A model generated the notes under the pieces. That model saw only the letters and a list, made by a program, of their open reading frames with translations. It was not told the DNA's origin and searched no databases. A stretch of DNA of 64,000 nt from a phage: the NCBI GenBank assembly GCA_011884725.1, contig GCA_011884725.1_3919.1. The stretch is one strand, 5' to 3'. Numbering within the stretch: position 1 is the first letter of the stretch; each line of letters opens with the position of its first letter. Of the stretch, positions 3,339 through 30,388 are shown piece by piece. The position numbers and the translations under genes are program-made.

Positions 3339-3346
3339 AAATTTTA

Positions 3347-3375
3347 TTGACACTGATTTTTAGATAGATTAAATT
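3347..3375 (+). promoter_or_regulatory. sigma70-like promoter (duplicate of 2483-2511)
   Basis: TTGACACTGATTTTTAGATAGATTAAATT. Confidence 0.55.
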
Positions 3376-3377
3376 AC

Positions 3378-3439
3378 ACATCAACGGGGAGGGAATGACC
3401 TTCCCCACTAAGTAAAGTCCTTAAACTAGGAGATTCAAA
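3378..3439 (+). repeat. leader module A copy 3
   Basis: Hairpin 3385-3405 plus RBS. Confidence 0.7.
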
Positions 3440-3637
3440 ATGGCTATTATCAACGGTTTAACCATTGAAACCACGCACATCAAAGACATTAAAGTTGGTG
3501 ATGTAGTTCTTTCCCACGGCGTAGAAAAAACAGTCACTGCAAAGGGTATCAAAGATGATTCTTTCATGGGTAGAACTCTCTTCGGTGATTCTTATTGCTT
3601 AGGTTATCTTGCAGTTTTAAAAGTTGTCAAAAATTAA
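3440..3637 (+). CDS. hypothetical early protein
   Basis: 65-aa ORF behind module A. Confidence 0.65.
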   Translation: MAIINGLTIETTHIKDIKVGDVVLSHGVEKTVTAKGIKDDSFMGRTLFGDSYCLGYLAVLKVVKN

Positions 3638-12704: not shown

Positions 12705-13169
12705 TTACTTTGGATATACACTGTCAAGATAAATGTCAGCTTCCATTCTACGTCTATTTTTCAAGCCGTTTGAAGTTACCTTCTTACCTTTGACTGTAAT
12801 CTTGTTCCACCACTGCATAGCTTCTGCACAACCTACCTTATTACCAGCATTGTGGCGCTTGATAAATGTAGAGTCCTGCATAGCTGTGATACCGATGTTA
12901 TATGTTTCACTTACAAGTGCATCGAACTCATTCTGAGAAGTTGGAGCCTTGATAGCTTTGTTCACTGCTGCAACAAACTTTTCAACATCTGCGAGAAGAT
13001 ACTGTTCAGCTTGTTCAGCCGTGATTTTCATACCCATCTTAACAGGTTTCCCGTCAATACGGATTGTACCATACCCGATTGTTGGGATTCCGGCAGAGTC
13101 TTCGTAAGCCTCTAACTCCAGACCTTCGAAGAACTTAATAGCGTCTAAACCTTTTCTTGAGAGTTGCAT
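12705..13169 (-). CDS. endolysin, T4-lysozyme-like (GH24) muramidase
   Basis: FFEGLELEAYEDSAGIPTIGYG matches the T4 lysozyme catalytic region [22 protein letters not shown] (Glu-Asp-Thr spacing). Confidence 0.85.
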   Translation of the reverse strand: MQLSRKGLDAIKFFEGLELEAYEDSAGIPTIGYGTIRIDGKPVKMGMKITAEQAEQYLLADVEKFVAAVNKAIKAPTSQNEFDALVSETYNIGITAMQDSTFIKRHNAGNKVGCAEAMQWWNKITVKGKKVTSNGLKNRRRMEADIYLDSVYPK

Positions 13170-14302
13170 TACGCCTCCCCTGCTGGGTTAACTGTAACTG
13201 TTGCTGCATTGGATGTTACAGAGCCACCTGCACCAGTAACTACACAGGTGTAGCTTCCTGCATCAGCAGCGGTTGCACCTTCTTTGGTGTAAGTTGCAGT
13301 AGTTGCATCGAGGATGTCTTCCTCACCTTTCTTCCATTGGTAACCTGTCGCACCTGTTGCCACAACATTCAGCGTTAAGGTCTCACCTTCAGTGATTTCT
13401 TGATTGGTTGGCTGTTGAGTGATAACTGGTAAAGCTTTCACAGTAACGGTTGCAGGGTTAGAAGTGACAGAACCACCTGCACCTGTTACAACGCAAGTGT
13501 ATGAACCTGCATCTGCTGGCAGAGCACCAGACTTACTATAGGTTGCATCTGTAGCCGAAGGAATGTCAGAGCTATCTTTCTCCCACTGATAACCTGTTGC
13601 ACCTGTTGCAGTCACTTCCAAGTTGATGTTTCCACCCTCATTGACGGTCTGGCTAGAAGGTTGTTGTGTAATCACAGGCAGTGCGTTGACAGTAACTGTT
13701 GCCGCATCTGAGGTAACGCTTGTCCCAGCCTCTCCAGATACAACACAAGTGTATGAACCAGCATCAGAAGGTTCTACAGACTGTTTTGTGTAGGTTGCAG
13801 ATGTGGCGCTAGTGATATCCTCACCATCCTTTTTCCATTGATATCCAGTGGCATTAGTTGCAATAACACTTAGGGTAAGTGTACCACCTTCATTTACTGT
13901 TTGATTGGTTGGTTGCTGAGTGATTGATGGTGGCTTGATAGCGTCCTTCAACTTAGCATTCAACATTGAGAATGGTTTAACTCTTGCCAGCCATTCACAA
14001 TAAACTGTATCAACGTCTTTACCATTGATAATTGCATATTGTAAGTCCATGAAGAAGTCAGAAGTTCTCATTTGAGCACCAACACTGTAAAGCAACTCAT
14101 CACTAAATGGAACTTTGTAGTCTGGTTTATAGTCAAACTTCTCAACTTCTGCAATATCAGCTTCAGGCCAATACGAGCTATAGGTAAGTGGTAAAATAGC
14201 CTCTTGATATGTTCTAAAATCATATCTCTTACCAGCCTTTACGTTTGCAATGAAGCCCTTCACAAACTCTTTGAAGTCTGGGTAAGTCTTTGCTTTAATC
14301 AT
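13169..14302 (-). CDS. protein with three tandem Ig-like repeats
   Basis: 377 aa; N-domain of about 130 aa, then three repeats of about 85 aa (PVITQQPTNQTVNEGG..ATGYQWKK..AGSYTCVV.G..VTS..ATVTV). Confidence 0.7.
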   Translation of the reverse strand: MIKAKTYPDFKEFVKGFIANVKAGKRYDFRTYQEAILPLTYSSYWPEADIAEVEKFDYKPDYKVPFSDELLYSVGAQMRTSDFFMDLQYAIINGKDVDTVYCEWLARVKPFSMLNAKLKDAIKPPSITQQPTNQTVNEGGTLTLSVIATNATGYQWKKDGEDITSATSATYTKQSVEPSDAGSYTCVVSGEAGTSVTSDAATVTVNALPVITQQPSSQTVNEGGNINLEVTATGATGYQWEKDSSDIPSATDATYSKSGALPADAGSYTCVVTGAGGSVTSNPATVTVKALPVITQQPTNQEITEGETLTLNVVATGATGYQWKKGEEDILDATTATYTKEGATAADAGSYTCVVTGAGGSVTSNAATVTVNPAGEA

Positions 14303-14670
14303 TTCTTTTCAGCCTCTAAATGTGCGTTTAGTCTAAAATAACCTTTGTGATTCGGAGATACATCACCAACGACAATACCTTTAACCTTATAGCCTTTACC
14401 AATTACATACTGGATATCCATAAGGAATCTTCCAAGACCAACAATATGGAACATTGGGTATAATAGATTCTCAGAGTCTGGAATATTGATTTCAGGTTTG
14501 TAGGTACGCTGTTCGCTTGTTGGTGTAATATCTTCTTCAGGCCATTTACTGAGTCTCCATGTCAAAGGTGTTGGGATAACATCATTAAGGTTGTACCTTT
14601 CACCATTTTGCACGGAATTGATATAGGATTGTAGGAAGCAATAAAAGTCTTTTGCACTCTTAGCTTTCAT
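14299..14670 (-). CDS. paralog of the N-domain of the Ig-repeat protein
   Basis: 123 aa; shares RY, WPE(E/A)DI, YKP, LLY, F(L/F)MD(I/L)QY(V/A)I with residues 1-110 of 13169-14302. Confidence 0.65.
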   Translation of the reverse strand: MKAKSAKDFYCFLQSYINSVQNGERYNLNDVIPTPLTWRLSKWPEEDITPTSEQRTYKPEINIPDSENLLYPMFHIVGLGRFLMDIQYVIGKGYKVKGIVVGDVSPNHKGYFRLNAHLEAEKK

Positions 14671-14717
14671 TAAATATCCTTATAAATAGTTAAAGGGGCA
14701 TAAGCCCCTATTCACAC

Positions 14718-15308
14718 TTAAGCTTTGGTCTTAAGTAGGTTCTTAAGTTTTTTAAGATTCATACTCTCATCAAACTTAAAACCAAATCCATTGACATAAT
14801 CAATGAACTCGGATTTCTTACTGAGTGACAATGCGTAACTCATATCAAAGTTCTTGCTTGTTTCTGCGTCTGGACTAGAGTTCACATCAAATGAAATTTC
14901 CGTAGGCTCTTGCTTACTTTTTCTCATATTATCAACCAACAAACATGTATAGTTTGCTGGATAGAAATTTACACTACCATCAACGTAGCTATACTTATTA
15001 TTATGGACAAGGTTGGAAAATACCTTAAGGAATGTTTCTGAGTCGTGGCAAACAAGTTTGAATTGGCTGCTCTCTCCAAGCGCAACTAATGAATACGGAC
15101 TTTCACTATCGAAGTGATAATTTGGATTCGATGCCGTTACTGTTACACGCATCAAGTTATTAGCAATAGTCTTCTGTTTAAAAGAATTTTGAACATAGTG
15201 AAGACCTCTATCACACTGATTGACTAGCTCTTTAAGTAGGTCATTTGCATAAGGTGAGTTAATTGATACAGAGCCATCACTATTGTAATTAAAACTTACT
15301 GTTAACAT
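14718..15308 (-). CDS. hypothetical protein
   Basis: 196-aa ORF. Confidence 0.65.
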   Translation of the reverse strand: MLTVSFNYNSDGSVSINSPYANDLLKELVNQCDRGLHYVQNSFKQKTIANNLMRVTVTASNPNYHFDSESPYSLVALGESSQFKLVCHDSETFLKVFSNLVHNNKYSYVDGSVNFYPANYTCLLVDNMRKSKQEPTEISFDVNSSPDAETSKNFDMSYALSLSKKSEFIDYVNGFGFKFDESMNLKKLKNLLKTKA

Positions 15309-15927: not shown

Positions 15928-16299
15928 ATGAAAAACAGAACAAACAAAGGCCAGTTTAAAAAAGGCCAGTCTGGAAACCCATCTGGAAGACCGAAAGGCT
16001 CACGTAACAAAAGTTCACTCGTAAAAGCTCAACTGACCATTGATAATTCTGCTGAGTTTGCTGCAAAGTTGTTTGAAGCGATTGTTACAAGGGACGCTGC
16101 TAAGCTTGCAGAGTTCGGGTTAAACACAGACGATGTAACCATCAAGAGCATGATTGAAGTCGGTAAAACCATCATGACTCACTCAGCAGGTGAGATGAAA
16201 GCAATTGCAGCAGACACTAAGAAGACCCCTGATAACGGTGGTCAGTCTCAGACAGATAACAAACCAACGTTCTCTGCTGTTGCAACCCTCAAAAAATAA
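15928..16299 (+). CDS. hypothetical protein with basic Gly/Pro-rich N-terminus
   Basis: 123 aa; KGQSGNPSGRPKGSRNK motif, possibly nucleic-acid binding; family not identified. Confidence 0.6.
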   Translation: MKNRTNKGQFKKGQSGNPSGRPKGSRNKSSLVKAQLTIDNSAEFAAKLFEAIVTRDAAKLAEFGLNTDDVTIKSMIEVGKTIMTHSAGEMKAIAADTKKTPDNGGQSQTDNKPTFSAVATLKK

Positions 16300-16380: not shown

Positions 16381-17796
16381 ATGAGCGAATTATTTAAACA
16401 TGCGCACCTTCATGCAGGTCGAACTGAAAATGGTGCTGTAAACCATACTTCATCAATGTCTGCTCTTGTAGACTTTTACAAAGCTGCTGGTTCAAGCCGT
16501 AGCAATGTAGAAATCTTACCAGACCTGTTCTACAAAGCTTTGCGTGAGGATGTTGATGTTGCAGTTCGTATTTTACTGCATATGCGAGATGTACGAGAAG
16601 GTATGGGTGAGCGTAAAGCCTTCAGAACTGTTTTACTTCAAGCGATTGAAGACAAAGTTTTAGAGCCTACGCAGGTTCTTCGCATTATGGATAAGATTGC
16701 AGAACTTGGTCGTTTTGATGACTTCAAAATCTTTGTAGGTACTCGTTTCGAGACAGATGCCTTCAAGCATTTAGAAGCAGCATTACTAGACCCTGCAACA
16801 GCAGGTTTGGCAGCTAAGTGGTTACCACGAGTCAAACCACGTCATAAGCAGTTTGTAAAACGTTTCTGCAAGTTTGCCAACTTGAGCGAGAAAGAGTACC
16901 GCACACTGTTGTCTGCACTATCTGATACAGTTGAGCAAAAAATCTCTGCTAATGAGTTTGGTAAGATTGACTACAGTAAGATTCCTTCACTTGCTGCTGC
17001 ACGCTACCAAAAACTGTTTAACCGTAAAGATGGAGAGCGATACAAAGCTTACATCGAGTCCTTATCAAAGGGTGAGGCTAAGATTAATGCTGGTGCTGTT
17101 TACCCATACGATGTGATTAAATCTGTCAAGCATGGTAATGCAGATGTTGCTAATGAGCAGTGGAAAGCACTACCAAACTGGATGGCAGAAGGTGAAAACA
17201 TCTTGTGTATGTCTGATGTATCAAGTTCAATGTCTTGGGTGAATTTTGGCTCCATTACTGCTCTGGATATTGGTGTATCACTTGCCTTGTATGTAGCAGA
17301 ACGCAATACAGGCTGCTTTAAGAATGAGTTGATGGTTTATTCAACAAACCCTCACTTCATCGAACTGAGTGGTGATTTACGAAACCGTCATCGTCAGGTG
17401 ATGCGACACGTTGAATATGGCTCAACTAACTTACAAGCAGCTTTTGACCGCATTCTTGAAACAGGTAAAAGAAACAACTTGACTCAGAAAGATATGCCAA
17501 GTAAGCTTATCATCTTCTCCGATATGGAGTTCAATCAGGTTGATGGAGCTAACGGTCGTACAAACTTTGAAGCAATTCAGAGTAAGTACAAAAAAGCTGG
17601 ATATGAGATGCCACAACTGGTATTCTGGTACTTAGCAAACCGTAATGGTACTTGCGAAGTGTCTGTTAAGGATAACGGTGTAGCAATGGTATCTGGTTTC
17701 TCTCCAGCCACTTTAAAAGCTCTGCTTGGTGGTGAGAAGTTTGACCCAATCAGCGTAATGCTCAAAGCAGTAATGATTGACCGTTATATCTGGTAA
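16381..17796 (+). CDS. vWA-domain protein with helical N-domain (possible TROVE/Ro60-like architecture)
   Basis: 471 aa; C-terminal vWA with MIDAS-like DVSSSMS (DxSxS) and downstream T and D positions (IIFSDMEF); helical N-domain of about 270 aa; sits directly upstream of the tRNA array. Confidence 0.7.
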   Translation: MSELFKHAHLHAGRTENGAVNHTSSMSALVDFYKAAGSSRSNVEILPDLFYKALREDVDVAVRILLHMRDVREGMGERKAFRTVLLQAIEDKVLEPTQVLRIMDKIAELGRFDDFKIFVGTRFETDAFKHLEAALLDPATAGLAAKWLPRVKPRHKQFVKRFCKFANLSEKEYRTLLSALSDTVEQKISANEFGKIDYSKIPSLAAARYQKLFNRKDGERYKAYIESLSKGEAKINAGAVYPYDVIKSVKHGNADVANEQWKALPNWMAEGENILCMSDVSSSMSWVNFGSITALDIGVSLALYVAERNTGCFKNELMVYSTNPHFIELSGDLRNRHRQVMRHVEYGSTNLQAAFDRILETGKRNNLTQKDMPSKLIIFSDMEFNQVDGANGRTNFEAIQSKYKKAGYEMPQLVFWYLANRNGTCEVSVKDNGVAMVSGFSPATLKALLGGEKFDPISVMLKAVMIDRYIW

Positions 17797-17961: not shown

Positions 17962-18038
17962 CTCTGTTTAGCTCAGCTTGGTAGAGCGTTCCGTTTGGGG
18001 CGGTAAGGCCGGAGGTTCAAGTCCTCCAACAGAGACCA
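17962..18038 (+). tRNA. tRNA-Pro (anticodon TGG)
   Basis: 7-bp acceptor CTCTGTT/AACAGAG, T-arm GGAGGTTCAAGTCCTCC, anticodon loop TTTGGGG, encoded CCA. Confidence 0.75.
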
Positions 18039-18045
18039 AATTAAT

Positions 18046-18123
18046 GTTCCAGTAGACAAAATGGTAAAGTCACCACTCTTTCAAAGTGGATATCTGAGGG
18101 TTCAAATCCCTTCTGGAACGCCA
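18046..18123 (+). tRNA. tRNA-Glu (anticodon TTC)
   Basis: Acceptor GTTCCAG/CTGGAAC, anticodon stem CCACT/AGTGG, loop CTTTCAA, T-loop TTCAAAT, CCA. Confidence 0.75.
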
Positions 18124-18126
18124 GTT

Positions 18127-18205
18127 TTGACAGAAGACCAATTACAGCAAACTTAATCTTATTCATCTGAAGGTAAATCGGACAAAGAAGAGATTTGGTC
18201 TGGTC
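18127..18205 (+). ncRNA. inter-tRNA structured element E1
   Basis: CAGAAGACC-box, helix AGACCAA (18135-18141) / TTGGTCT (18195-18201), TTACAGCAAA box inside. Confidence 0.5.
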
Positions 18206-18214
18206 ATTAAGAAT

Positions 18215-18291
18215 TGCGGGTATAGAGAAAGGGCGTCTCACATGTCTCATTAGCATGGTATCGGCAGGTTCGACTCCTGCACCCGCCTCCA
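18215..18291 (+). tRNA. tRNA-Met-like (anticodon CAT) with 1:72 mismatch
   Basis: Anticodon stem CATGT/GCATG, loop CTCATTA, T-arm GCAGGTTCGACTCCTGC, 3' ACCCGCC-T-CCA; 5' end TGCGGGT leaves position 1 unpaired. Confidence 0.6.
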
Positions 18292-18294
18292 AAT

Positions 18295-18365
18295 TTACAG
18301 AAGACCGTTTACAGCAAAATTGAATGAAATTTTTAGCGGAAAAATTGAAAGATACGGTCTGGTAA
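18295..18365 (+). ncRNA. inter-tRNA structured element E2
   Basis: Helix AGACCGT (18302-18308) / ACGGTCT (18354-18360); compensatory to E1; TTACAGCAAAA box. Confidence 0.5.
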
Positions 18366-18375
18366 TACTAAACAT

Positions 18376-18449
18376 GGTTAGGAAGCACATAAGGTATGTG
18401 CGGTCGCCTGTTAAGCGAATGGCACAGGGTTCGAATCCCTGACTAACCG
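18376..18449 (+). tRNA. tRNA-Asn (anticodon GTT)
   Basis: Acceptor GGTTAGG, D-stem GCAC/GTGC, anticodon loop CTGTTAA, T-arm CAGGGTTCGAATCCCTG; no encoded CCA. Confidence 0.65.
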
Positions 18450-18461
18450 CAAAATTGAAAT

Positions 18462-18549
18462 GTGTCGTTATCCCGTAGATGGTAGCGGTGGGGACTGTAA
18501 ATCCCTTGTCATTGAGACTCGGTAGGTTCGACTCCTACACGGCACACCA
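18462..18549 (+). tRNA. tRNA-Tyr (anticodon GTA), long variable arm
   Basis: Acceptor GTGTCGT/ACGGCAC, anticodon loop CTGTAAA, long variable arm, T-arm GTAGGTTCGACTCCTAC, CCA. Confidence 0.7.
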
Positions 18550-18554
18550 ATAAA

Positions 18555-18631
18555 GGCTATGTAGTTTAACTGGAGAAAATACTCCCCTGTCACGGGAGAT
18601 GATGTGAGTTCAAGTCTCATCGTAGCCGCCA
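18555..18631 (+). tRNA. tRNA-Asp (anticodon GTC)
   Basis: Acceptor GGCTATG/CGTAGCC, anticodon stem CTCCC/GGGAG, loop CTGTCAC, T-loop TTCAAGT, CCA. Confidence 0.75.
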
Positions 18632-18685
18632 AATTATAATAAGTATTTCAAAATGATGTTTTGAGAGGGCTATTTAGCCCCTCCC

Positions 18686-18716
18686 TTAAAGAGTTCTTAC
18701 GAGTATTCTTTAAAGG
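18686..18716 (+). ncRNA. hairpin with conserved TTCTTACGAG loop, copy 1
   Basis: TTAAAGAGTTCTTACGAGTATTCTTTAAAGG; second copy at 22027-22056 has a different but still complementary stem. Confidence 0.45.
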
Positions 18717-18795
18717 AGCAGAAGACCAAATACAGCAAGAATGTATGATATTTTCAAGCCAATCCAATTTTGAAAAAATTTAAAACTTGGTCTGG
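18717..18795 (+). ncRNA. inter-tRNA structured element E3
   Basis: CAGAAGACC box, helix AGACCAA (18723-18729) / TTGGTCT (18787-18793), ATACAGCAAG box. Confidence 0.5.
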
Positions 18796-18804
18796 CTCAA
18801 CAAA

Positions 18805-18939
18805 TTTACAGAAGACCGTTTACAGCAAAACTTAAACAATCTATTTCTCGGTAAAGAAAAGGCGAAGGTTCGATTCCTTCACTCGGCAGATGTCGAGTTG
18901 GTGTAATGGTAGCACTTAAGATGATAAACAACGGTCTGG
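18805..18939 (+). ncRNA. element E4 enclosing a tRNA-like module
   Basis: Helix AGACCGTT (18813-18820) / AACGGTCT (18930-18937); inside: T-arm GAAGGTTCGATTCCTTC, hairpin ACTCGGC-AGAT-GTCGAGT, D-arm-like GTGTAATGGTAGCAC. The order is 3'-half before 5'-half. Confidence 0.45.
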
Positions 18940-18940
18940 T

Positions 18941-19084
18941 AATTATCTTTGTAGATAAGTTATTAAGCTTACCTGTGAGTATGCGACCACAAAGGGTGAA
19001 AGGGTAAATTCTAGATTTAAACCCAAAAAGGCACATCGCTACAGACCTTAAGCAAGTCTGGGTAGCTTATCTACAAAGATAATT
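18941..19084 (+). ncRNA. structured RNA closed by a 19-bp perfect helix
   Basis: AATTATCTTTGTAGATAAG (18941-18959) is the exact reverse complement of CTTATCTACAAAGATAATT (19066-19084); inner hairpins include CAGAC/GTCTG. Confidence 0.5.
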
Positions 19085-19088
19085 TAAT

Positions 19089-19164
19089 GGAAGTGTAGCA
19101 GAATGGTGATGCGGCAGACTTTTAATCTGACAGGCGATGGGTTCGAATCCCTCCACTTCTACCA
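19089..19164 (+). tRNA. tRNA-Lys (anticodon TTT)
   Basis: Acceptor GGAAGTG/CACTTCT (G1.U72), anticodon loop CTTTTAA, T-loop TTCGAAT (weak T-stem), CCA. Confidence 0.65.
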
Positions 19165-19168
19165 ATAT

Positions 19169-19245
19169 GGTTCAGTCGCAGATAAGGTAATGCAAGGGTC
19201 TCATAAGCCCTATGAATGTGGGTTCGATTCCCATCTGAACCTCCA
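19169..19245 (+). tRNA. tRNA with CAT anticodon (elongator Met or Ile2-type)
   Basis: Acceptor GGTTCAG/CTGAACC fully paired, anticodon stem AGGGT/GCCCT, loop CTCATAA, T-loop TTCGATT, CCA. Confidence 0.65.
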
Positions 19246-19246
19246 A

Positions 19247-19322
19247 GCTGGTATAGTTAAGAAGGTTATAACACTCCCCTGATAAGGGAACATCGGTGGT
19301 TCGATTCCACCTACCAGTACCA
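19247..19322 (+). tRNA. tRNA-Ile (anticodon GAT)
   Basis: Acceptor GCTGGTA/TACCAGT, anticodon loop CTGATAA, T-arm GGTGGTTCGATTCCACC, CCA. Confidence 0.7.
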
Positions 19323-19337
19323 ATTTCAATAAAGTTG

Positions 19338-19366
19338 TTGACATTGAGATGTGACTACTTTATAGT
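19338..19366 (+). promoter_or_regulatory. internal promoter within tRNA array
   Basis: TTGACA (19338-19343), 17-nt spacer, TATAGT (19361-19366). Confidence 0.6.
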
Positions 19367-19568
19367 AACCTTAGTTTTCGTTGCGTAGCGTCTATTTTGC
19401 AAATTTAAAATAAATGCAAACGACAATGTTTTTCTGGCAGTAGCTTGATAGGCTAAACACCAGTGAGGTCTTCCAATCCCTCATCAAAGAATTTGGCGTA
19501 CTCGCCCACGGTATGATTAATAAGGTGGGCATCTTTAAGGGCTTTCTAAGAGAGTCTTTAAAGATAAT

Positions 19569-19645
19569 GCACCCTTAGTTCAATTGGATAGAGCAACGGT
19601 CTTCTAAATCGTTAGTTACAGGTTCGAATCCTGTAGGGTGTACCA
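19569..19645 (+). tRNA. tRNA-Arg (anticodon TCT)
   Basis: Acceptor GCACCCT/AGGGTGT, D-arm TAGTTCAATTGGATAGAGC, anticodon loop CTTCTAA, T-loop TTCGAAT, CCA. Confidence 0.75.
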
Positions 19646-19787
19646 AATAGTTAGCAGATTACTTAGACGGCCTTAGCGGGTCTTCCTGTAGGGAGGTGGT
19701 CTGTATCTCATGTTTTCCAGAACATGTAAATAATCTGAGAAGAAGCTTGACAGTGTTGAGATAACAGGGTAAGCTTCGAATTATAAT

Positions 19788-19870
19788 ATGGGACGATGTT
19801 AAGACTCTAAGGCATGAGCAACGGCCTCCAAAACCGTTTCAAAGGGGTTCAACTCCTCCGTCCCATGCCA
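19788..19870 (+). tRNA. atypical tRNA (anticodon probably CCA, Trp?)
   Basis: Acceptor ATGGGAC/GTCCCAT, T-loop TTCAACT, CCA; anticodon stem AACGG/CCGTT encloses 9 nt (CCTCCAAAA); D region is 4-8 nt longer than usual. Confidence 0.45.
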
Positions 19871-19883
19871 AAGTCTTATTAGG

Positions 19884-19971
19884 GGTAGGTAGCGGCTAAT
19901 GGTAGCCAAACTGTCTTGAAAACAGTTGCCACTGTAGAGATACGGTGAGGGTTCGACTCCTTTACTTACCG
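19884..19971 (+). tRNA. tRNA-Ser (anticodon TGA), long variable arm
   Basis: Acceptor GGTAGGT/ACTTACC, anticodon stem ACTGT/ACAGT, loop CTTGAAA, long variable arm, T-loop TTCGACT. Confidence 0.65.
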
Positions 19972-20126
19972 CCTAATAAGATTTACTCCGTCCATGCTTG
20001 TTCGCATTGTCGGTTTATCCCTCGTGTATTGTCGTACACTGTCAAAGCACCTAGTAGGTGTCACGGAGAAGAGATAATATCAAGCTCTCCAAAGGTTCTA
20101 GTCACCGGATTAAACAAGACTATGCA

Positions 20127-20151
20127 AAGACCTATTTAGGTCTTTTTAGAG
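20127..20151 (+). terminator. intrinsic terminator inside tRNA array
   Basis: AAAGACC-TATTTA-GGTCTTT followed by TTTAG. Confidence 0.5.
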
Positions 20152-20227
20152 GGCTTCTAAGGTTATTAGTCGCTTGTTGTGGAACCTTGTTGCTTAGGTT
20201 CTTAGAAGTTCTCTAAAAAGATTTAAT

Positions 20228-20305
20228 GGGAGATTGACGGTAATTGGTAAACCTACCATCCTTAGAAGTTGGTGTTTGAGGGTTCGAATCCCTTGTCTCC
20301 TACCA
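20228..20305 (+). tRNA. tRNA, class I shape, anticodon TAG (Leu?)
   Basis: Acceptor GGGAGAT/GTCTCCT, anticodon loop CTTAGAA, 5-nt variable loop, T-loop TTCGAAT, A73, CCA. Confidence 0.5.
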
Positions 20306-20312
20306 AATTAAT

Positions 20313-20388
20313 GCAGGTGTAGCAAAATGGTTATGCGGCTGACTCTTAATCAGTAAGACGATGGGTTCAATTCCCTCCACCTGTACCA
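20313..20388 (+). tRNA. tRNA-Lys (anticodon CTT)
   Basis: Acceptor GCAGGTG/CACCTGT, anticodon stem GCTGA/TCAGT, loop CTCTTAA, T-loop TTCAATT, CCA. Confidence 0.6.
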
Positions 20389-20394
20389 AACATT

Positions 20395-20470
20395 GGGGAT
20401 GTAGTTTACATGGTTAAAACATAAGTTTTGCAAACTTAAGTACAGGGTTCAATTCCCTGCTTCTCCACCA
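20395..20470 (+). tRNA. tRNA-Cys (anticodon GCA)
   Basis: Anticodon stem AAGTT/AACTT, loop TTGCAAA, T-arm CAGGGTTCAATTCCCTG, CCA. Confidence 0.65.
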
Positions 20471-20476
20471 ATTAGT

Positions 20477-20551
20477 GCATCCATAGTTTAAACGGGAAAA
20501 TTACAGTCTTCCAAACTGAGGTTGAGGGTTCGATTCCCTCTGGATGCTCCA
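20477..20551 (+). tRNA. tRNA-Gly (anticodon TCC)
   Basis: Acceptor GCATCCA/TGGATGC, anticodon loop CTTCCAA, T-loop TTCGATT, CCA. Confidence 0.65.
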
Positions 20552-20557
20552 AACAAT

Positions 20558-20634
20558 GCTGCTTTCGTATAATTGGCTATTACACATCCCTTGTAAGGAT
20601 GGAAATGCAGGTTCGAGTCCTGTGAGCAGCACCA
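20558..20634 (+). tRNA. tRNA-Thr (anticodon TGT)
   Basis: Acceptor GCTGCTT/GAGCAGC, anticodon stem CATCC/GGATG, loop CTTGTAA, T-loop TTCGAGT, CCA. Confidence 0.7.
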
Positions 20635-20635
20635 A

Positions 20636-20730
20636 TTCAGAGGTCAAGTGAAAGACCGCTTTGAGTCAACTGAAGACCGTAACAAATACCACGGAGTTGA
20701 GTTAGCGGCACAACTTCAGACCTCTTTCAT
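20636..20730 (+). ncRNA. structured spacer element between tRNA-Thr and tRNA-Val
   Basis: Closing helix CAGAGGTC (20638-20645) / GACCTCTT (20722-20729); contains a GAAGACCGT box as in E2/E4; no T-loop. Confidence 0.4.
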
Positions 20731-20805
20731 ACTCGCTTAGTTTATATGGTAAAACATCACCCTTACAAGATGAAGAAAAAGGTTCAAGTCCTTTAGTGAG
20801 TACCA
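20731..20805 (+). tRNA. tRNA-Val (anticodon TAC)
   Basis: Acceptor ACTCGCT/AGTGAGT, anticodon loop CTTACAA, T-arm AAAGGTTCAAGTCCTTT, CCA. Confidence 0.6.
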
Positions 20806-20806
20806 T

Positions 20807-20884
20807 GTTCCAGTATCCCAATTGGCAGAGGATGCAAGCTCAAACCTTGTATTAGTGACGGTTCGAATCCGTCTTGGAACACCA
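20807..20884 (+). tRNA. tRNA, class I shape, anticodon CAA (Leu?)
   Basis: Acceptor GTTCCAG/TTGGAAC, anticodon stem GCAAG/CTTGT, loop CTCAAAC, T-arm GACGGTTCGAATCCGTC, A73, CCA. Confidence 0.5.
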
Positions 20885-20889
20885 ATTTT

Positions 20890-20965
20890 GCAGGATTAGT
20901 TCAAATGGAAAGAGCAACAGTCTACGAAGCTGTTAATAGGGGTTCGAATCCCTTATCCTGCGCCA
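20890..20965 (+). tRNA. tRNA-Arg (anticodon ACG)
   Basis: Acceptor GCAGGAT/ATCCTGC, D-stem GTTC/GAGC, anticodon stem ACAGT/GCTGT, loop CTACGAA, T-loop TTCGAAT, CCA. Confidence 0.75.
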
Positions 20966-20982
20966 GATAAAAAGGTGATACT

Positions 20983-21225
20983 ATGCAAACATTAACAGTA
21001 GTTGAACATGAAAACTGTGAGAGTATTGAGTTTGTCAGGGTCATTGGTGTTGAACACCACATTTTCTTAAAAGTGGGATACTTATGTGACCCCGCTAGAG
21101 TAGAAAGATTTATACGTGATTGTTTTGGTGGTAGACATCTGAAGAGTGTTATTTTTGAGACAGTTTTACCAGAAGGTTTAGAAACGAATAATAACATTTA
21201 CCTCCTTACGAGGATTAGACAATGA
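20983..21225 (+). CDS. hypothetical protein embedded in tRNA array
   Basis: 80-aa ORF; RBS AAAGGTGA 7 nt upstream of ATG. Confidence 0.5.
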   Translation: MQTLTVVEHENCESIEFVRVIGVEHHIFLKVGYLCDPARVERFIRDCFGGRHLKSVIFETVLPEGLETNNNIYLLTRIRQ

Positions 21226-21779
21226 GATACTTAAAGTATGCTTCATGGATTTTCTTAGCTTTGTTAGAGCCATTTGCAGCAATCTTAGCAGTTATCTTAG
21301 CACCTTTTGTAGTTCCATTCTACAGTGAGAAGAAAGGACACTTACCTTTCGGGTTCAGATGGATGGAGACATATGACAACCCAATTGATGGTGATGAAGG
21401 TCACGTTAAAAGATGGGCTAATATTAGATGGATTGGTAAACTAGGTGTCTACATGCAAAGAGTCGGATGGCTCTGGAGAAACAAAGCTTATAACTTCTCT
21501 TACCATGTATTAGGAAGAGATGTAAGAGATGTTACTAAGTGGAAAGGTAATATCAACGTAAGTTCTAACCCTGAAGATAATCAGACTGGTTATCTCCTAA
21601 TGTGGAACAGTAATGCTTGGGGATTATTCGCTTTTATCCCATCAATTAAAGTCTTCGGTAAACAGTTTTACTGGAGAATTTATGTTGGATGGAAACTTAA
21701 AAGTGTTGTCCCAGAAGAAAGAGCATTCTCAAGGGAAAGAGTTATGTTGGCATTCTTTATTCATCCACTGAGAAAGTAA
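21222..21779 (+). CDS. hypothetical membrane protein embedded in tRNA array
   Basis: 185 aa; N-terminal TM segment (WIFLALLEPFAAILAVILAPFVVPF); start overlaps previous stop; RBS GAGGA. Confidence 0.6.
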   Translation: MRYLKYASWIFLALLEPFAAILAVILAPFVVPFYSEKKGHLPFGFRWMETYDNPIDGDEGHVKRWANIRWIGKLGVYMQRVGWLWRNKAYNFSYHVLGRDVRDVTKWKGNINVSSNPEDNQTGYLLMWNSNAWGLFAFIPSIKVFGKQFYWRIYVGWKLKSVVPEERAFSRERVMLAFFIHPLRK

Positions 21780-21787
21780 AGATTTAA

Positions 21788-21863
21788 AGGGGATTAGTTT
21801 ACAAGGTTAAAACCTCGGTCTTTGAAATCGAAGAAGTTGGTTCAATTCCAACATCCCCCGCCA
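21788..21863 (+). tRNA. tRNA-Gln (anticodon TTG)
   Basis: Anticodon stem TCGGT/ATCGA, loop CTTTGAA, T-arm GTTGGTTCAATTCCAAC, 3' ATCCCCC-G-CCA; position 1 (A) unpaired with C72. Confidence 0.6.
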
Positions 21864-21865
21864 AT

Positions 21866-21944
21866 GCTCCATTACTCCAATTGGCAGAGAGGCCAGACTT
21901 AAAATCTGTGTTATGTATCGGTTCGAATCCGATATGGAGTACCA
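21866..21944 (+). tRNA. tRNA, class I shape, anticodon TAA (Leu?)
   Basis: Acceptor GCTCCAT/ATGGAGT, anticodon loop CTTAAAA, T-arm ATCGGTTCGAATCCGAT, A73, CCA. Confidence 0.5.
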
Positions 21945-21949
21945 AATTT

Positions 21950-22025
21950 AGCGGTATAGCATAACTGGCAATGCAGCAGTCTCTGAAGCTGTCCTATTAA
22001 GGTTCAAATCCTTATGCCGCTGCCA
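21950..22025 (+). tRNA. tRNA-Gln (anticodon CTG)
   Basis: Acceptor AGCGGTA/TGCCGCT, D-stem GCAT/ATGC, anticodon stem GCAGT/GCTGT, loop CTCTGAA, T-loop TTCAAAT, CCA. Confidence 0.6.
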
Positions 22026-22026
22026 C

Positions 22027-22056
22027 TTCTAAGGATTCTTACGAGAGTCCTTAAAT
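22027..22056 (+). ncRNA. hairpin with conserved TTCTTACGAG loop, copy 2
   Basis: TTCTAAGGATTCTTACGAGAGTCCTTAAATG; stem TAAGGATTC/GAGTCCTTA. Confidence 0.45.
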
Positions 22057-22132
22057 GTGGCCTTATCATAAATGGTAATGACCCATGCTGTGAACATGGT
22101 CTATACGGGTTCAAATCCCGTAGGTCACCCCA
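22057..22132 (+). tRNA. tRNA-His (anticodon GTG)
   Basis: Acceptor GTGGCCT/AGGTCAC, anticodon stem CCATG/CATGG, loop CTGTGAA, T-arm ACGGGTTCAAATCCCGT, CCA. Confidence 0.7.
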
Positions 22133-22138
22133 ATTTAT

Positions 22139-22214
22139 AGTCCAAGTAGCTTATATGGTTAAAGCGCGTGTCTGAAAAACATGAGAAGAGGGTTCAAATC
22201 CCACTGGACTACCA
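22139..22214 (+). tRNA. tRNA-Phe (anticodon GAA)
   Basis: Acceptor AGTCCAA/CTGGACT, anticodon stem CGTGT/ACATG, loop CTGAAAA, T-loop TTCAAAT (short T-stem), CCA. Confidence 0.6.
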
Positions 22215-22230
22215 ATTTCAAAGGTGCTTA

Positions 22231-22965
22231 ATGAAAGAGATGACAGAACAAGGTAAGGAGATTTTCAATCTCTTAAAAACCGGTAAAGGGTTTTCTAACC
22301 CCCTTATTACTGGTGCAGCAGTTCTCGGTGGAACCGTAGCTGCCTCTACATCACTTGTAAGCTCTATTAGCTCTGTATCAGACCCTACAGTAAAGGATAA
22401 GCTTGTTGCTGCTGGACTTACAACAGTTCTGCTTAACAGCTTTACCACGAGTCTGACAAGCACTACATCAACTACCAAAACACTAACAGATTACGGTCAA
22501 AAGTCCATTGATGAGTTTTCATCACGTATGCAGGTAGCAAAAGGTTACTCTAATGTTATGGGTGCAGCAGGTGAACAAGTTGGCTGTACACCATTTAGTG
22601 GTATTATGGGTGTTGCTACAGAGTATGGTCAAAAAACTATTGATACGATTAACAGTGTACTAGATAGTGTTAATGGTGTGTTAAGTGACTTACAAGATGC
22701 TATTGACAAAGGTCTTGATACTATTTCTGATTTAGCTGAGCAAGCTGTTAGTAAGATTAATGAAGGTATTTCAAAAATTACAGCTTATGCAGATGAAGTT
22801 GTGCAGATGATTGAAGAAGAAGCTGCTCTTATTGCAGAGTACCTTAAAACGAATATCAATGGGTTCTTAGCAGGTATCTTACCAGACTGGTTTGATGATG
22901 CTTGTAAAACTGGTGTAATTGACACTATTGCAACACCAGAAATGAAGAACGCATTACAGAAATAA
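22231..22965 (+). CDS. hypothetical protein (Ser/Thr-rich N-half, helical C-half)
   Basis: Listed ORF starts at 22168 inside tRNA-Phe; in-frame ATG at 22231 with RBS AAAGG chosen. Confidence 0.55.
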   Translation: MKEMTEQGKEIFNLLKTGKGFSNPLITGAAVLGGTVAASTSLVSSISSVSDPTVKDKLVAAGLTTVLLNSFTTSLTSTTSTTKTLTDYGQKSIDEFSSRMQVAKGYSNVMGAAGEQVGCTPFSGIMGVATEYGQKTIDTINSVLDSVNGVLSDLQDAIDKGLDTISDLAEQAVSKINEGISKITAYADEVVQMIEEEAALIAEYLKTNINGFLAGILPDWFDDACKTGVIDTIATPEMKNALQK

Positions 22966-22967
22966 AT

Positions 22968-23060
22968 GGAAGATTAACCCTAAAAGGTAAGGGAGCAGTT
23001 TGCTAAACTGCCAGTAGCTGAGAAATCGGTGTACCAGTTCAAGTCTGGTATCTTCCTCCA
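22968..23060 (+). tRNA. tRNA-Ser (anticodon GCT), long variable arm
   Basis: Acceptor GGAAGAT/ATCTTCC, D-stem CCC/GGG, anticodon stem GCAGT/ACTGC, loop TTGCTAA, long variable arm, T-arm ACCAGTTCAAGTCTGGT, CCA. Confidence 0.7.
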
Positions 23061-23064
23061 ATTT

Positions 23065-23140
23065 GAATCCGTGACAGAAACGGCTATGTGCCTGTCTGCA
23101 AAACAGGTTTATAAGGGTTCGAGTCCCTTCGGATTCTCCA
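23065..23140 (+). tRNA. tRNA with GCA anticodon (second Cys-like)
   Basis: Acceptor GAATCCG/CGGATTC, anticodon stem CCTGT/ACAGG, loop CTGCAAA, T-arm AAGGGTTCGAGTCCCTT, CCA; atypical D-arm. Confidence 0.5.
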
Positions 23141-23563: not shown

Positions 23564-23584
23564 TTCTATTTGCGGAGGTGCTTA

Positions 23585-29281: not shown

Positions 29282-30388
29282 ATGTTGACTAATTCTGAAA
29301 AAAGCAGATTTTTCCTTGCTGACCTGACTGGTGAAGTCCAGTCTATCCCAAATACTTATGGGTATATTTCCAACTTAGGTCTGTTCCGTTCAGCACCAAT
29401 CACCCAAACTACTTTCCTTATGGACTTGACTGATTGGGATGTTAGCTTGCTTGATGCGGTAGACCGTGATAGCCGTAAAGCAGAGACTAGCGCACCTGAG
29501 CGTGTTCGTCAAATCAGCTTCCCAATGATGTACTTCAAAGAAGTTGAAAGCATTACTCCTGATGAAATTCAGGGTGTACGTCAGCCAGGCACTGCAAACG
29601 AACTGACTACTGAAGCTGTAGTACGTGCTAAGAAGCTGATGAAGATTCGTACCAAGTTCGATATTACTCGTGAGTTCCTGTTTATGCAAGCTCTGAAGGG
29701 TAAAGTTGTTGATGCTCGTGGTACTCTGTATGCTGACCTGTACAAGCAGTTCGACGTTGAGAAGAAGACTGTTTACTTCGACCTTGACAACCCTAATGCT
29801 GACATCGACGCTTCTATTGAAGAACTGCGTATGCACATGGAAGACGAAGCTAAGACTGGCACTGTAATCAACGGTGAAGAAATTCACGTAGTTGTTGACC
29901 GTGTATTCTTCAGCAAGCTGACTAAACACCCTAAGATTCGTGATGCCTATCTTGCACAGCAGACCCCACTGGCTTGGCAACAGATTACTGGTTCTCTGAG
30001 AACTGGTGGTACTGACGGCGTTCAGGCTCACATGAACACTTTCTACTACGGTGGTGTTAAGTTTGTCCAGTACAACGGTAAGTTCAAAGACAAGCGTGGT
30101 AAGGTTCATACTCTGGTGAGCATTGATGGTGCTGGTGCAGAGGTTGGTGTAGGACACGCTTTCCCTAACGTTTCTATGCTGGGTGAAGCAAACAACATCT
30201 TCGAAGTGGCTTATGGCCCATGCCCTAAGATGGGTTACGCAAATACACTTGGTCAGGAACTGTATGTATTCGAATACGAAAAAGACCGTGATGAAGGTAT
30301 TGACTTCGAAGCTCACTCTTACATGCTGCCATACTGTACTCGTCCTCAGTTGCTGGTAGACGTTCGTTCTGACGCTAAAGACGAATAA
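29282..30388 (+). CDS. major capsid protein
   Basis: 368-aa ORF after protease/scaffold, strong RBS, codon usage of a highly expressed gene. Confidence 0.75.
   Translation: MLTNSEKSRFFLADLTGEVQSIPNTYGYISNLGLFRSAPITQTTFLMDLTDWDVSLLDAVDRDSRKAETSAPERVRQISFPMMYFKEVESITPDEIQGVRQPGTANELTTEAVVRAKKLMKIRTKFDITREFLFMQALKGKVVDARGTLYADLYKQFDVEKKTVYFDLDNPNADIDASIEELRMHMEDEAKTGTVINGEEIHVVVDRVFFSKLTKHPKIRDAYLAQQTPLAWQQITGSLRTGGTDGVQAHMNTFYYGGVKFVQYNGKFKDKRGKVHTLVSIDGAGAEVGVGHAFPNVSMLGEANNIFEVAYGPCPKMGYANTLGQELYVFEYEKDRDEGIDFEAHSYMLPYCTRPQLLVDVRSDAKDE

What the first reader, a model, noticed from the sequence alone, without database searches (positions are those of the whole stretch)
13169..14670. Ig-repeat protein and a truncated paralog next to the endolysin
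The 377-aa protein carries three tandem Ig-like repeats of about 85 aa (..ATGYQWKK..AGSYTCVV..) C-terminal to a domain of about 130 aa. The adjacent 123-aa gene is a paralog of that N-domain alone (shared WPE(E/A)DI, YKP, LLY, FMDxQY). Ig-like domains on phages usually mediate weak adherence to carbohydrates, but this pair lies in the minus-strand non-structural block rather than in the virion module. The duplication suggests a soluble and a display form of one function.
Basis: partly seen in the sequence, partly recalled or inferred. Interest (0 to 1): 0.5.

Follow-up and report, generated by a model that had tools for sequence, protein, structure and literature searches.

The report
Known head-decoration protein plus anchor-only paralog
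The 377-aa Ig-repeat protein is the already described capsid decoration protein of Felix O1-like phages (Hex-Dec in Bas63, gp20 in Sf14), so it is ordinary; the 123-aa neighbour is an old, conserved copy of its capsid-anchor domain alone, and its role is unknown and apparently undiscussed.

Summary
The window is a Felixounavirus genome, 98.7% identical to phage LMP34 over the finding.

**The 377-aa protein (13169-14302, minus strand)**
- It has a 122-aa N-domain followed by three I-set/Ig_3 domains that are 67-70% identical to one another.
- It is close to identical to the Bas63 Hex-Dec chain solved by cryo-EM (PDB 9NCF_S) and homologous to Sf14 gp20 (9C2D_S).
- In those phages the protein is a monomer. 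[quoted passage not shown]
- The published contact residues are present here: Arg79 and Arg107 in the protein, Asp221 in the major capsid protein.
- It is therefore a virion protein, even though its gene lies about 15 kb from the head genes. The database label "tail protein" is wrong.

**The 123-aa protein (14299-14670, minus strand)**
- It is a true paralog of the CapBD only (37% identity, E 9e-17).
- It is conserved next to Hex-Dec in Felixounavirus, Mooglevirus, Suspvirus and a divergent metagenomic phage, under purifying selection (dN/dS 0.11-0.18).
- Felix O1 RT-PCR shows it peaking late, together with Hex-Dec.
- It has lost both anchoring arginines.
- It is absent from published virion proteomes and cryo-EM models.
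- It is a pseudogene in phages REP12 and Z31.

I read it as a dispensable, non-virion accessory of head decoration, not a "soluble form" of the adhesin. The Ig protein is already known. The paralog is a small open question.

The parts
13169..14302 (-). Hex-Dec gene: a Hoc-like decoration protein of 377 aa that sits at the centre of capsid hexamers
   Evidence: ORF. PDB 9ncf_S at E 1e-299 and 9c2d_S at E 3e-167. phrog_3995 at E 2e-208.
13937..14302 (-). Capsid-binding domain (CapBD), aa 1-122, with Arg79 and Arg107
   Evidence: Aligns with residues 1-122 of the solved Bas63 and Sf14 chains. R79 and R107 are present. Their role as salt bridges to capsid Asp221 comes from PMC11821841.
13682..13936 (-). 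Ig-like domain 1 (aa 123-207)
   Evidence: Pfam Ig_3 and I-set, best stretch 124-197. Repeat boundaries.
13433..13681 (-). Ig-like domain 2 (aa 208-290)
   Evidence: Pfam Ig_2 at 209-288. 67-70% identical to the other two repeats.
13184..13432 (-). Ig-like domain 3 (aa 291-373); corresponds to the fourth Ig domain of Bas63
   Evidence: Pfam. Nearly identical to Bas63 residues 374-458 in the second alignment.
14299..14670 (-). 123-aa paralog that consists of the CapBD only (Felix O1 ORF37, Sf14 gp21, Bas63 bas63_0125, phrog_4463)
   Evidence: dN/dS 0.11-0.18.
14299..14302 (-). ATGA overlap between the paralog stop codon and the Hex-Dec start codon, which would allow translational coupling
   Evidence: Sequence read. 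The same 4-nt overlap occurs in Felix O1, Sf14 and Bas63.
14695..14708 (-). GC hairpin GGGGCTTATGCCCC followed by a T-rich run, lying between the 196-aa gene and the paralog. An AGGA ribosome-binding site follows at 14677-14680.
   Evidence: It matches the terminator listed for Felix O1 near 20445 in PMC3185647 and is conserved in REP12 and Z31. My terminator scan did not call it.
12705..13169 (-). Endolysin (GH24 phage lysozyme), the downstream neighbour, given as context
   Evidence: PF00959 at E 4e-40 and phrog_7.
29282..30388 (+). Major capsid protein, the docking partner of Hex-Dec; Asp221 is present
   Evidence: 9ncf_A at E 1e-245 and 9c2d_A at E 5e-233. The alignment shows ...KIRDAYL... 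with D at position 221.

Best explanation
**The 377-aa protein** is the Felixounavirus hexamer decoration protein (Hex-Dec in Bas63, gp20 in Sf14).
- One monomer docks through its 122-aa N-terminal capsid-binding domain into the acidic centre of each of the 60 pentamer-adjacent hexamers of the T=9 head.
- Docking uses Arg79 and Arg107 against Asp221 of the major capsid protein.
- Three flexible I-set Ig domains project outward as a short fibre.
- By analogy with T4 Hoc, the fibre probably gives weak, non-essential adhesion to glycans, surfaces or other particles. That step is inferred, not shown.
- The number of Ig units changes by in-register gain or loss. This phage equals Bas63 minus one unit.

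**The 123-aa protein** is an old tandem duplicate of the anchor domain alone.
- It is made late from the same transcription unit, directly upstream of Hex-Dec and overlapping it.
- It keeps the fold core but has lost both anchoring arginines.
- It is not a detectable virion component.
- My commitment, at low confidence, is that it acts inside the infected cell as a dispensable accessory of head decoration or maturation. For example, it could transiently occupy hexamer centres or escort the Hex-Dec anchor. I do not think it is a second decoration protein.
For: **Identity of Hex-Dec**
- PDB 9ncf_S at E 1e-299 over residues 1-372, and 9c2d_S at E 3e-167.
- R79 and R107 are present.
- The capsid protein is about 98.6% identical to 9ncf_A, with D221.
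- The whole locus is 98.7-94% identical to many Felixounavirus genomes.

**Virion location (published)**
- Cryo-EM of Bas63 (PMC12609058) and Sf14 (PMC11821841), read.
- Felix O1 gp36 was detected in CsCl-purified virions at 44% coverage. ORF36 is the homolog.

**Ig modularity**
- The window's third Ig domain matches the fourth of Bas63.
- Forms with 1 to 4 Ig domains exist (PMC12609058).

**Paralog homology and selection**
- Homology.
- The paralogs form one clade. The same gene order (195-196 aa, paralog, Hex-Dec, lysozyme) is kept in Sf14, SUSP1, Bas63 and a divergent 87-kb metagenomic phage whose paralog is only 44% identical.
- dN/dS is 0.11-0.18.

**Paralog expression and absence from virions**
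- Felix O1 ORF36 and ORF37 both peak at 60 min. ORF35 and ORF38 peak at 25 min (RT-PCR table).
- Arg79 is Gly in all paralogs. Arg107 is Asn, Gln or His in nearly all.
- The paralog is absent from the Felix O1 list of 17 proteins.
- VpaE1 ORF40c carries no structural or MS-based annotation in that paper's ORF table, and the additional MS proteins the paper names do not include it.
- Sf14 gp21 is absent from that paper's table of virion gene products.
- Bas63 encodes the paralog, yet no density was seen on the other hexamers.

**Dispensability**
- REP12 and Z31 carry it as a pseudogene, with an internal deletion of about 228 nt and no start codon.
Against: **Hex-Dec**
- Nothing in the evidence contradicts the identification.
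- The adhesive function of the Ig domains has not been tested in any Ounavirinae phage I could find. Both structure papers only propose it.

**Paralog**
- Absence from virions rests on published protein lists, not on a targeted search. A 14-kDa protein at 20 copies or fewer could be missed in the 2010 data.
- Icosahedral averaging would weaken the density of a monomer sitting on a 3-fold axis.
- Only two contact residues are published, so loss of those two does not prove loss of capsid binding.
- The paralog is more basic than the anchor (pI 8.6 against 5.5). It could still bind the Asp-lined pore.
- One divergent paralog (P0098) has Arg at the column equivalent to position 107.
- My AlphaFold2 model was poor (pLDDT 57), so it gave no structural test.
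Confidence: 0.85

Rival explanations
1. The 123-aa protein is itself a minor, Ig-less decoration protein. It would either cap the 20 facet-centre hexamers that Hex-Dec avoids, or compete with Hex-Dec for the 60 edge sites and so tune the density of Ig fibres. This is the nearest version of the first reader's "two forms of one function".
For: - It shares the full CapBD fold core with the long protein.
- Expression is late and coupled to Hex-Dec.
- It is under purifying selection.
- Hex-Dec leaves 20 hexamers empty, and the Sf14 authors attribute this to shifted Asp221 side chains. An anchor that does not depend on those arginines could suit such a site.
- The paralog is basic and the pore is acidic (PMC11821841).
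Against: - Both cryo-EM studies report no density on the other hexamers.
- The density at edge hexamers was modelled as Hex-Dec or gp20 at about 3 Å.
- The paralog is not among the proteins named from Felix O1 or VpaE1 virion MS, although VpaE1 MS identified 22 structural proteins.
- It is not listed for Sf14.
- Arg79 and Arg107 are lost.
Confidence: 0.15
2. The 123-aa protein kept the fold but was recruited to a job unrelated to the phage's own capsid. Examples would be binding a host factor, or acting as a decoy or antagonist toward a host defence that senses capsid-associated proteins.
For: - It evolves faster than the anchor of Hex-Dec: 44% against 58% identity for the same pair of phages, and dN/dS 0.11-0.18 against 0.02-0.06.
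- It has lost the capsid-contact arginines.
- Its net charge is reversed.
- It is dispensable in the REP12/Z31 lineage, as accessory genes that interact with the host often are.
Against: - It gave no hit in PADLOC or NCBIfam, and none in Pfam.
- Linkage and overlap with Hex-Dec are strictly conserved in every lineage examined.
- Its timing is late, like the structural genes.
- These points favour a role tied to the head.
Confidence: 0.15
3. The 377-aa protein is a tail protein, as most GenBank records, UniRef and PHROG label it ("tail protein", "HK97 major tail subunit").
For: - phrog_3995 is labelled "tail protein".
- Many records carry the annotation "tail protein".
- There are matches to PHROG families of major tail proteins.
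Against: - The matches to tail-protein families cover only the Ig region, from about aa 96 onward.
- The N-domain is the capsid-binding domain seen on hexamers in two cryo-EM structures (PMC12609058, PMC11821841).
- The Bas63 authors state explicitly that the "tail protein" label is an annotation error.
Confidence: 0.02
4. The 123-aa ORF is a decaying remnant of a duplication and has no function.
For: - It is a pseudogene in REP12 and Z31.
- About 19 of 253 related records have no match at 60% identity or better.
- It is absent from Kolesnikvirus and from LPML1.
Against: - It is intact at 122-124 aa in 233 of 253 records.
- dN/dS is 0.11-0.18 at dS around 1.
- It is retained with the same neighbours in a lineage where it is only 44% identical.
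- It has a ribosome-binding site (AGGA) 6 nt upstream of its ATG.
- It is transcribed in Felix O1.
Confidence: 0.04

Closest known systems
Bas63 Hex-Dec (PDB 9NCF chain S) and Sf14 gp20 (PDB 9C2D and 9C3A chain S), the Ounavirinae hexamer-centre decoration proteins
   Same: - The N-terminal capsid-binding domain is essentially identical to that of Bas63 and strongly similar to that of Sf14.
- Arg79 and Arg107 are the same.
- The capsid partner is the same, with Asp221.
- The Ig type (I-set) is the same.
- The gene position is the same: between the 123-aa gene and the endolysin, more than 10 kb from the head genes.
   Different: Only the number of Ig units differs. There are three here, four in Bas63, three in Sf14 and two in Felix O1. 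This protein equals Bas63 Hex-Dec lacking its third Ig unit.
[quoted passage not shown]
   Same: - It works alike: a monomer at hexamer centres, a string of Ig-like domains pointing outward, an acidic surface, and dispensability.
- It is proposed to mediate adhesion or aggregation.
- PHROG "Hoc-like" families match the Ig region.
   Different: - In Hoc the capsid-binding domain is C-terminal and has a different topology. Here it is N-terminal, larger and pseudo-twofold (PMC12609058).
- The similarity is limited to the Ig domains, so this is a functional analog, not a member of the Hoc family.
- T4 has no anchor-only paralog that I know of (own knowledge).
phrog_4463, the family of the 123-aa protein (Felix O1 ORF37, Sf14 gp21, Bas63 bas63_0125)
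   Same: Full-length match at E 1.7e-79. Identical or nearly identical proteins are in many public genomes.
   Different: The family has no assigned function. Neither cryo-EM paper mentions its relation to the Hex-Dec anchor domain: a text search for "paralog" gave 0 hits in both. Some pipelines copy the label "tail protein" onto it.
Ig-like domains on phage tail tube and fibre proteins (lambda gpV C-terminal domain, T5 pb6 and pb10)
   Same: They use the same kind of accessory Ig-like display domain, appended to a structural anchor. Sequence matches lie in the Ig region.
   Different: The anchors are unrelated (tail tube fold, or the pb10 capsid-binding domain), and the location on the particle differs.

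Membership tests
Ounavirinae Hex-Dec / Sf14 gp20 hexamer decoration protein (377-aa protein) | N-terminal capsid-binding domain of about 118-122 aa, homologous to the solved chains | tested here: met
   9ncf_S at E 1e-299 and 9c2d_S at E 3e-167, aligned from residue 1.
Ounavirinae Hex-Dec / Sf14 gp20 hexamer decoration protein (377-aa protein) | Arg79 and Arg107, which form salt bridges to capsid Asp221 (PMC11821841) | tested here: met
   R79 and R107 are present. The window's capsid protein has D221.
Ounavirinae Hex-Dec / Sf14 gp20 hexamer decoration protein (377-aa protein) | C-terminal string of 1-4 Ig-like domains | tested here: met
   Three Ig_3/I-set stretches.
Ounavirinae Hex-Dec / Sf14 gp20 hexamer decoration protein (377-aa protein) | Gene lies beside the endolysin and outside the structural module | tested here: met
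   The order is the same in Felix O1, Sf14, SUSP1 and Bas63.
Ounavirinae Hex-Dec / Sf14 gp20 hexamer decoration protein (377-aa protein) | Physically bound at the centres of pentamer-adjacent hexamers in the virion | not testable with these tools
   Shown for Bas63 and Sf14 by cryo-EM, and for Felix O1 gp36 and Sf14 gp20 by virion MS. Inferred here from near identity.
Ounavirinae Hex-Dec family (123-aa paralog) | Homology to the capsid-binding domain | tested here: met
   BLASTP E 9e-17. 9ncf_S residues 3-117 at E 1e-11. 28 invariant columns are shared with Hex-Dec anchors.
Ounavirinae Hex-Dec family (123-aa paralog) | Anchoring Arg79 and Arg107 | tested here: not met
   Gly stands at the column of Arg79 in all paralogs. 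Asn, Gln or His stands at the column of Arg107, with Arg in one divergent paralog.
Ounavirinae Hex-Dec family (123-aa paralog) | Ig-like display domains | tested here: not met
   The protein ends at residue 123 and has no Pfam hit.
Ounavirinae Hex-Dec family (123-aa paralog) | Presence on the capsid | not testable with these tools
   It is not named among the virion proteins of Felix O1, VpaE1 or Sf14. No density was reported on the other hexamers.
T4 Hoc | Hoc-type C-terminal capsid-binding domain | tested here: not met
   PHROG Hoc-like families match only the Ig region, between about aa 121 and 290. The anchor here is N-terminal. PMC12609058 states that the topology is distinct.
Major tail (tube) proteins with a C-terminal Ig domain (lambda gpV or HK97 type) | N-terminal tail-tube fold domain | tested here: not met
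   The PHROG tail-protein families phrog_158, phrog_853 and phrog_3575 match only from about aa 96-127 onward. The N-domain matches only the CapBD family.

The most novel reading that the evidence does not exclude
The 123-aa protein would be an unrecognised third player in Ounavirinae head decoration. It would be an Ig-less, arginine-less copy of the hexamer plug that still docks on capsid hexamers. It might sit on the 20 facet-centre hexamers at low or averaged-out occupancy, or on procapsid hexamers before expansion. In that way it would help restrict or time the loading of the Ig-bearing Hex-Dec onto exactly 60 sites.
Probability: 0.2. Interest if true: 0.45.

Novelty: already known. Interest (0 to 1): 0.25.

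Why it matters
**The Ig protein.** The practical value is correction of annotation. Most records still call it a tail protein, although two 2025 cryo-EM studies place it on the head. Because it is a dispensable, outward-facing protein with a variable number of Ig units, it is a natural display scaffold. It is also a candidate determinant of where therapeutic Felix O1-like phages stick.

**The anchor-only paralog.** This is the only open item. It is conserved, transcribed late and linked to Hex-Dec, yet absent from virion data. If it does interact with hexamers or with Hex-Dec, it could explain how site-selective decoration (60 of 80 hexamers) is set up. If it does not, it is a small example of a structural domain recruited to another job.

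Tried and rejected
1. **Structure of the paralog.** The AlphaFold2 model from a 27-sequence alignment was poor (pLDDT 57, residues 30-69 below 50). In a Foldseek search of the PDB, Sf14 gp20 was still the top hit, but only at E 0.076 and TM 0.46. I do not use this as evidence. The Sf14 authors also note that AlphaFold mispredicts this domain.
2. **Tandem repeats at DNA level.** Tandem Repeats Finder does not report the Ig repeats. They are too diverged at DNA level, about 70% identical.
3. **A shared late-promoter motif.** I searched for the sequence downstream of the hairpin upstream of the paralog. There were only 2 matches, no better than chance. The sigma-70 scan showed no enrichment.
4. 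**Other family libraries for the paralog.** Pfam, NCBIfam and PADLOC gave nothing.
5. **A wider family.** An exhaustive profile search of 1.84 billion representatives found only 12 clusters, all like Ounavirinae phages. There is no bacterial or other phage relative to borrow a function from.
6. **A frameshift fusion.** A programmed -1 frameshift at GAAAAG before the ATGA overlap would fuse the paralog to Hex-Dec. I rejected this by reasoning. The frame offset differs in SUSP1, which has an 8-nt overlap. Felix O1 gp36 also runs at its unfused mass of 31.6 kDa.
7. **More virion proteomes.** Further literature searches found none for Felixounavirus or Mooglevirus.
Full report
**1. What is in the sequence**

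The ORF list shows a run of minus-strand genes:
- a 196-aa ORF at 14718-15308;
- a 123-aa ORF at 14299-14670;
- a 377-aa ORF at 13169-14302;
- a 154-aa ORF at 12705-13169, followed by further small ORFs.

The 154-aa protein is a GH24 phage lysozyme (PF00959, E 4e-40).

Three features of the junctions stand out.
- The stop codon of the 123-aa gene overlaps the start codon of the 377-aa gene (ATGA). The 377-aa stop overlaps the lysin start (TAATG).
- A GC hairpin (GGGGCTTATGCCCC, 14695-14708) with a T-rich tail separates the 196-aa gene from the 123-aa gene. An AGGA ribosome-binding site lies 6 nt upstream of the ATG.
- The 377-aa protein has three stretches each of Ig_3, Ig_2 and I-set (E 1.8e-33 to 1.5e-25). 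The three units (aa 123-207, 208-290, 291-373) are 67-70% identical to one another. They follow a 122-aa N-domain that has no Pfam match.

The 123-aa protein aligns with that N-domain at 37% identity over 101 residues (E 9e-17). Each protein also matches the other's PHROG family.

**2. Which genome this is**

The 1,966-bp locus is 98.7% identical to Escherichia phages LMP25, LMP33 and LMP34. It is about 95% identical to wV8 and 94-95% identical to many other Felixounavirus genomes.

The rest of the window fits that assignment:
- a DUF2828/DUF7788 gene;
- 26 tRNA genes at 17962-23140;
- a plus-strand structural module starting near 23570.

The major capsid protein (29282-30388) is about 98.6% identical to the Bas63 capsid protein.

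**3. The 377-aa protein is a known capsid decoration protein**

A search of PDB sequences gives two strong matches:
- 9NCF chain S, "Immunoglobulin-like domain protein", at E 1e-299;
- 9C2D and 9C3A chain S, "tail protein", at E 3e-167.

These chains come from the cryo-EM structures of Bas63 (PMC12609058) and Sf14 (PMC11821841). Both papers describe the following:
- The protein binds as a monomer. Its N-terminal roughly 118-aa capsid-binding domain (CapBD) sits in the centre of the hexamers next to the pentamers of a T=9 head. That is 60 of the 80 hexamers.
- No density is seen on the remaining hexamers.
- The flexible Ig domains are not resolved.
- In Sf14, Arg79 and Arg107 form salt bridges to Asp221 of the capsid protein.

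The window protein has both arginines, and the window capsid protein has Asp221.

Virion mass spectrometry agrees. Felix O1 gp36 was found at 44% coverage in CsCl-purified particles, and ORF36 is the homolog. Sf14 gp20 is also listed as detected.

The Bas63 authors state that the common label "tail protein" is an annotation error. The PHROG matches to tail-protein and Hoc-like families cover only the Ig region.

Both papers propose a Hoc-like adhesive or aggregation role for the Ig fibre. Neither tests it.

The number of Ig units varies from 1 to 4 in the genus (PMC12609058). The alignment shows that the window's third unit is nearly identical to the fourth unit of Bas63. This protein is therefore Bas63 Hex-Dec without its third unit.

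**4. The 123-aa protein**

It corresponds to Felix O1 ORF37, Sf14 gp21, VpaE1 ORF40c and Bas63 bas63_0125. It matches phrog_4463, a family of unknown function. It has no match in Pfam, NCBIfam or PADLOC.

*Distribution*
- tblastn finds an intact copy in 233 of 253 related phage records.
- An exhaustive profile search of 1.84 billion cluster representatives finds only 12 clusters for the whole CapBD family.
- One of these, P0098, is a 122-aa protein from an 87-kb metagenomic phage. It has the same gene order: 195 aa, 122 aa, 298-aa Ig protein, lysozyme.

*Age of the duplication*
- In a tree of CapBD sequences, the four paralogs form one clade. The four linked Hex-Dec anchors cluster separately and show the same branching order.
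- The duplication therefore predates the split of these lineages.
- Kolesnikvirus (SunLIRen) and the phage recorded as "Listeria phage LPML1" have a Hex-Dec-like gene but no paralog.

*Selection*
- The paralog is under purifying selection (dN/dS 0.11-0.18).
- Selection is looser than on the Hex-Dec anchor (0.02-0.06). Over the same divergence, the paralog keeps 44% identity and the anchor 58%.

*Conserved and lost residues*
- The residues invariant in both families are mostly hydrophobic or aromatic residues, prolines and glycines. Examples are F9, F12, W43-P44-E45, Y57, P59, L69-L70-Y71, F82, M84-D85, Q87 and L114-N115-A116. This is consistent with a shared fold core.
- Arg79 is replaced by Gly in every paralog.
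- Arg107 is replaced by Asn, Gln or His, except for Arg in P0098.
- The net charge changes from -1.5 (pI 5.5) in the anchor to +1.8 (pI 8.6) in the paralog.

*Expression*
- In Felix O1, RT-PCR shows ORF36 and ORF37 both peaking at 60 min, together with portal, sheath, baseplate and fibre genes.
- The flanking ORF35 and ORF38 peak at 25 min.

*Virion data*
- ORF37 is not among the 17 Felix O1 virion proteins.
- VpaE1 ORF40c carries no structural annotation in that paper's ORF table, and the additional MS-detected proteins the paper names do not include it.
- Sf14 gp21 is not in that paper's table of virion gene products.
- Bas63 encodes the paralog, yet the paper reports no density on the other hexamers.
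- The word "paralog" does not occur in either structure paper.

*Loss*
- In REP12 and Z31 the gene is a pseudogene, with no start codon and an internal deletion of about 228 nt.
- In Z31, Hex-Dec itself carries a stop codon just after the anchor domain.
- The paralog is therefore not needed for plaque formation.

**5. Interpretation**

The identification of the long protein is secure. Its mechanism of attachment is published. Its biological role (adhesion) is inferred by analogy with T4 Hoc.

For the short protein, the evidence says that it is a real, late gene, functionally retained but dispensable. It shares the anchor fold and lacks the two published anchor contacts. It is not a reported virion component.

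My preferred reading, at low confidence, is an intracellular accessory role tied to head decoration or maturation. The rivals are:
- a low-copy decoration protein on the 20 free hexamers, or a competitor at the 60 occupied ones (about 0.15);
- recruitment to an unrelated task (about 0.15);
- a functionless remnant (about 0.04).

**6. Comparison and novelty**

The long protein is a member of the Hex-Dec/gp20 family. All sequence-level defining features were tested and met. It is a functional analog of T4 Hoc, not a homolog: the anchor is at the other end of the protein and has a different topology.

Elsewhere in the family the anchor module is joined to other display domains:
- Big_2 in the Kolesnikvirus-like P0100;
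- a Lys/Ser-rich tail in P0104.

Everything about the Ig protein is already published. The paralogy of the neighbouring gene is visible in database cross-hits, but I found no discussion of it. That is a modest loose end rather than a new kind of system.

**7. Limits**

- I could not obtain a usable structure model of the paralog (pLDDT 57; top Foldseek hit Sf14 gp20 at only E 0.076).
- I could not model complexes.
- I could not access the raw MS data.
- The claim that the paralog is absent from virions rests on published lists.

Noticed in passing
window 17962-23140 (+): There is a dense array of 26 tRNA genes, including two tRNA-Met, between the DUF2828/DUF7788 gene (16381-17796) and the structural module. 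This is typical of Felix O1-like phages.
   Followed up: partly
L008 (REP12) 2306-2497; L004 (Z31) 2806-2997 and 2998-3570: In a sub-lineage of Felixounavirus the 123-aa gene is a pseudogene, with the start codon lost and about 228 nt deleted. In Z31 the Hex-Dec gene also has an in-frame stop just after the anchor domain, which leaves an Ig-less protein of 134 aa.
   Followed up: partly
L006 (OK283618 'Listeria phage LPML1'); 'Staphylococcus phage SA1': Two records labelled as phages of Gram-positive hosts are Ounavirinae by sequence and gene order, and one carries a near-identical copy of the 123-aa protein. The host labels look doubtful.
   Followed up: no
P0100, P0104 (metagenomic relatives); L005 (SunLIRen) 2941-3555: The capsid-anchor domain is a swappable module. 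It is fused to I-set Ig domains in Felix, Moogle and Susp phages, to a Big_2 domain in the Kolesnikvirus-like P0100, and to a Lys/Ser-rich low-complexity tail in P0104.
   Followed up: partly
window 14695-14708 (-): A conserved GC hairpin with a T-rich tail lies between the 196-aa gene and the paralog. It is listed as a terminator in Felix O1 and is retained even where the paralog is a pseudogene. Together with the RT-PCR timing, this suggests that the paralog and Hex-Dec form their own late unit, but I found no promoter motif.
   Followed up: partly
Bas63 baseplate (PMC12609058), not in the window: The Bas63 paper reports one unassigned C3 density at the tip of the central needle. Its identity is open. 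I have no evidence linking it to the 123-aa protein.
   Followed up: no
window 15928-16299 (+) and 16381-17796 (+): A DUF5681 protein and a DUF2828/DUF7788 protein open the plus-strand block just upstream of the tRNA array. The latter is labelled "RNA-binding protein" in some records. Their function in these phages is unknown.
   Followed up: no
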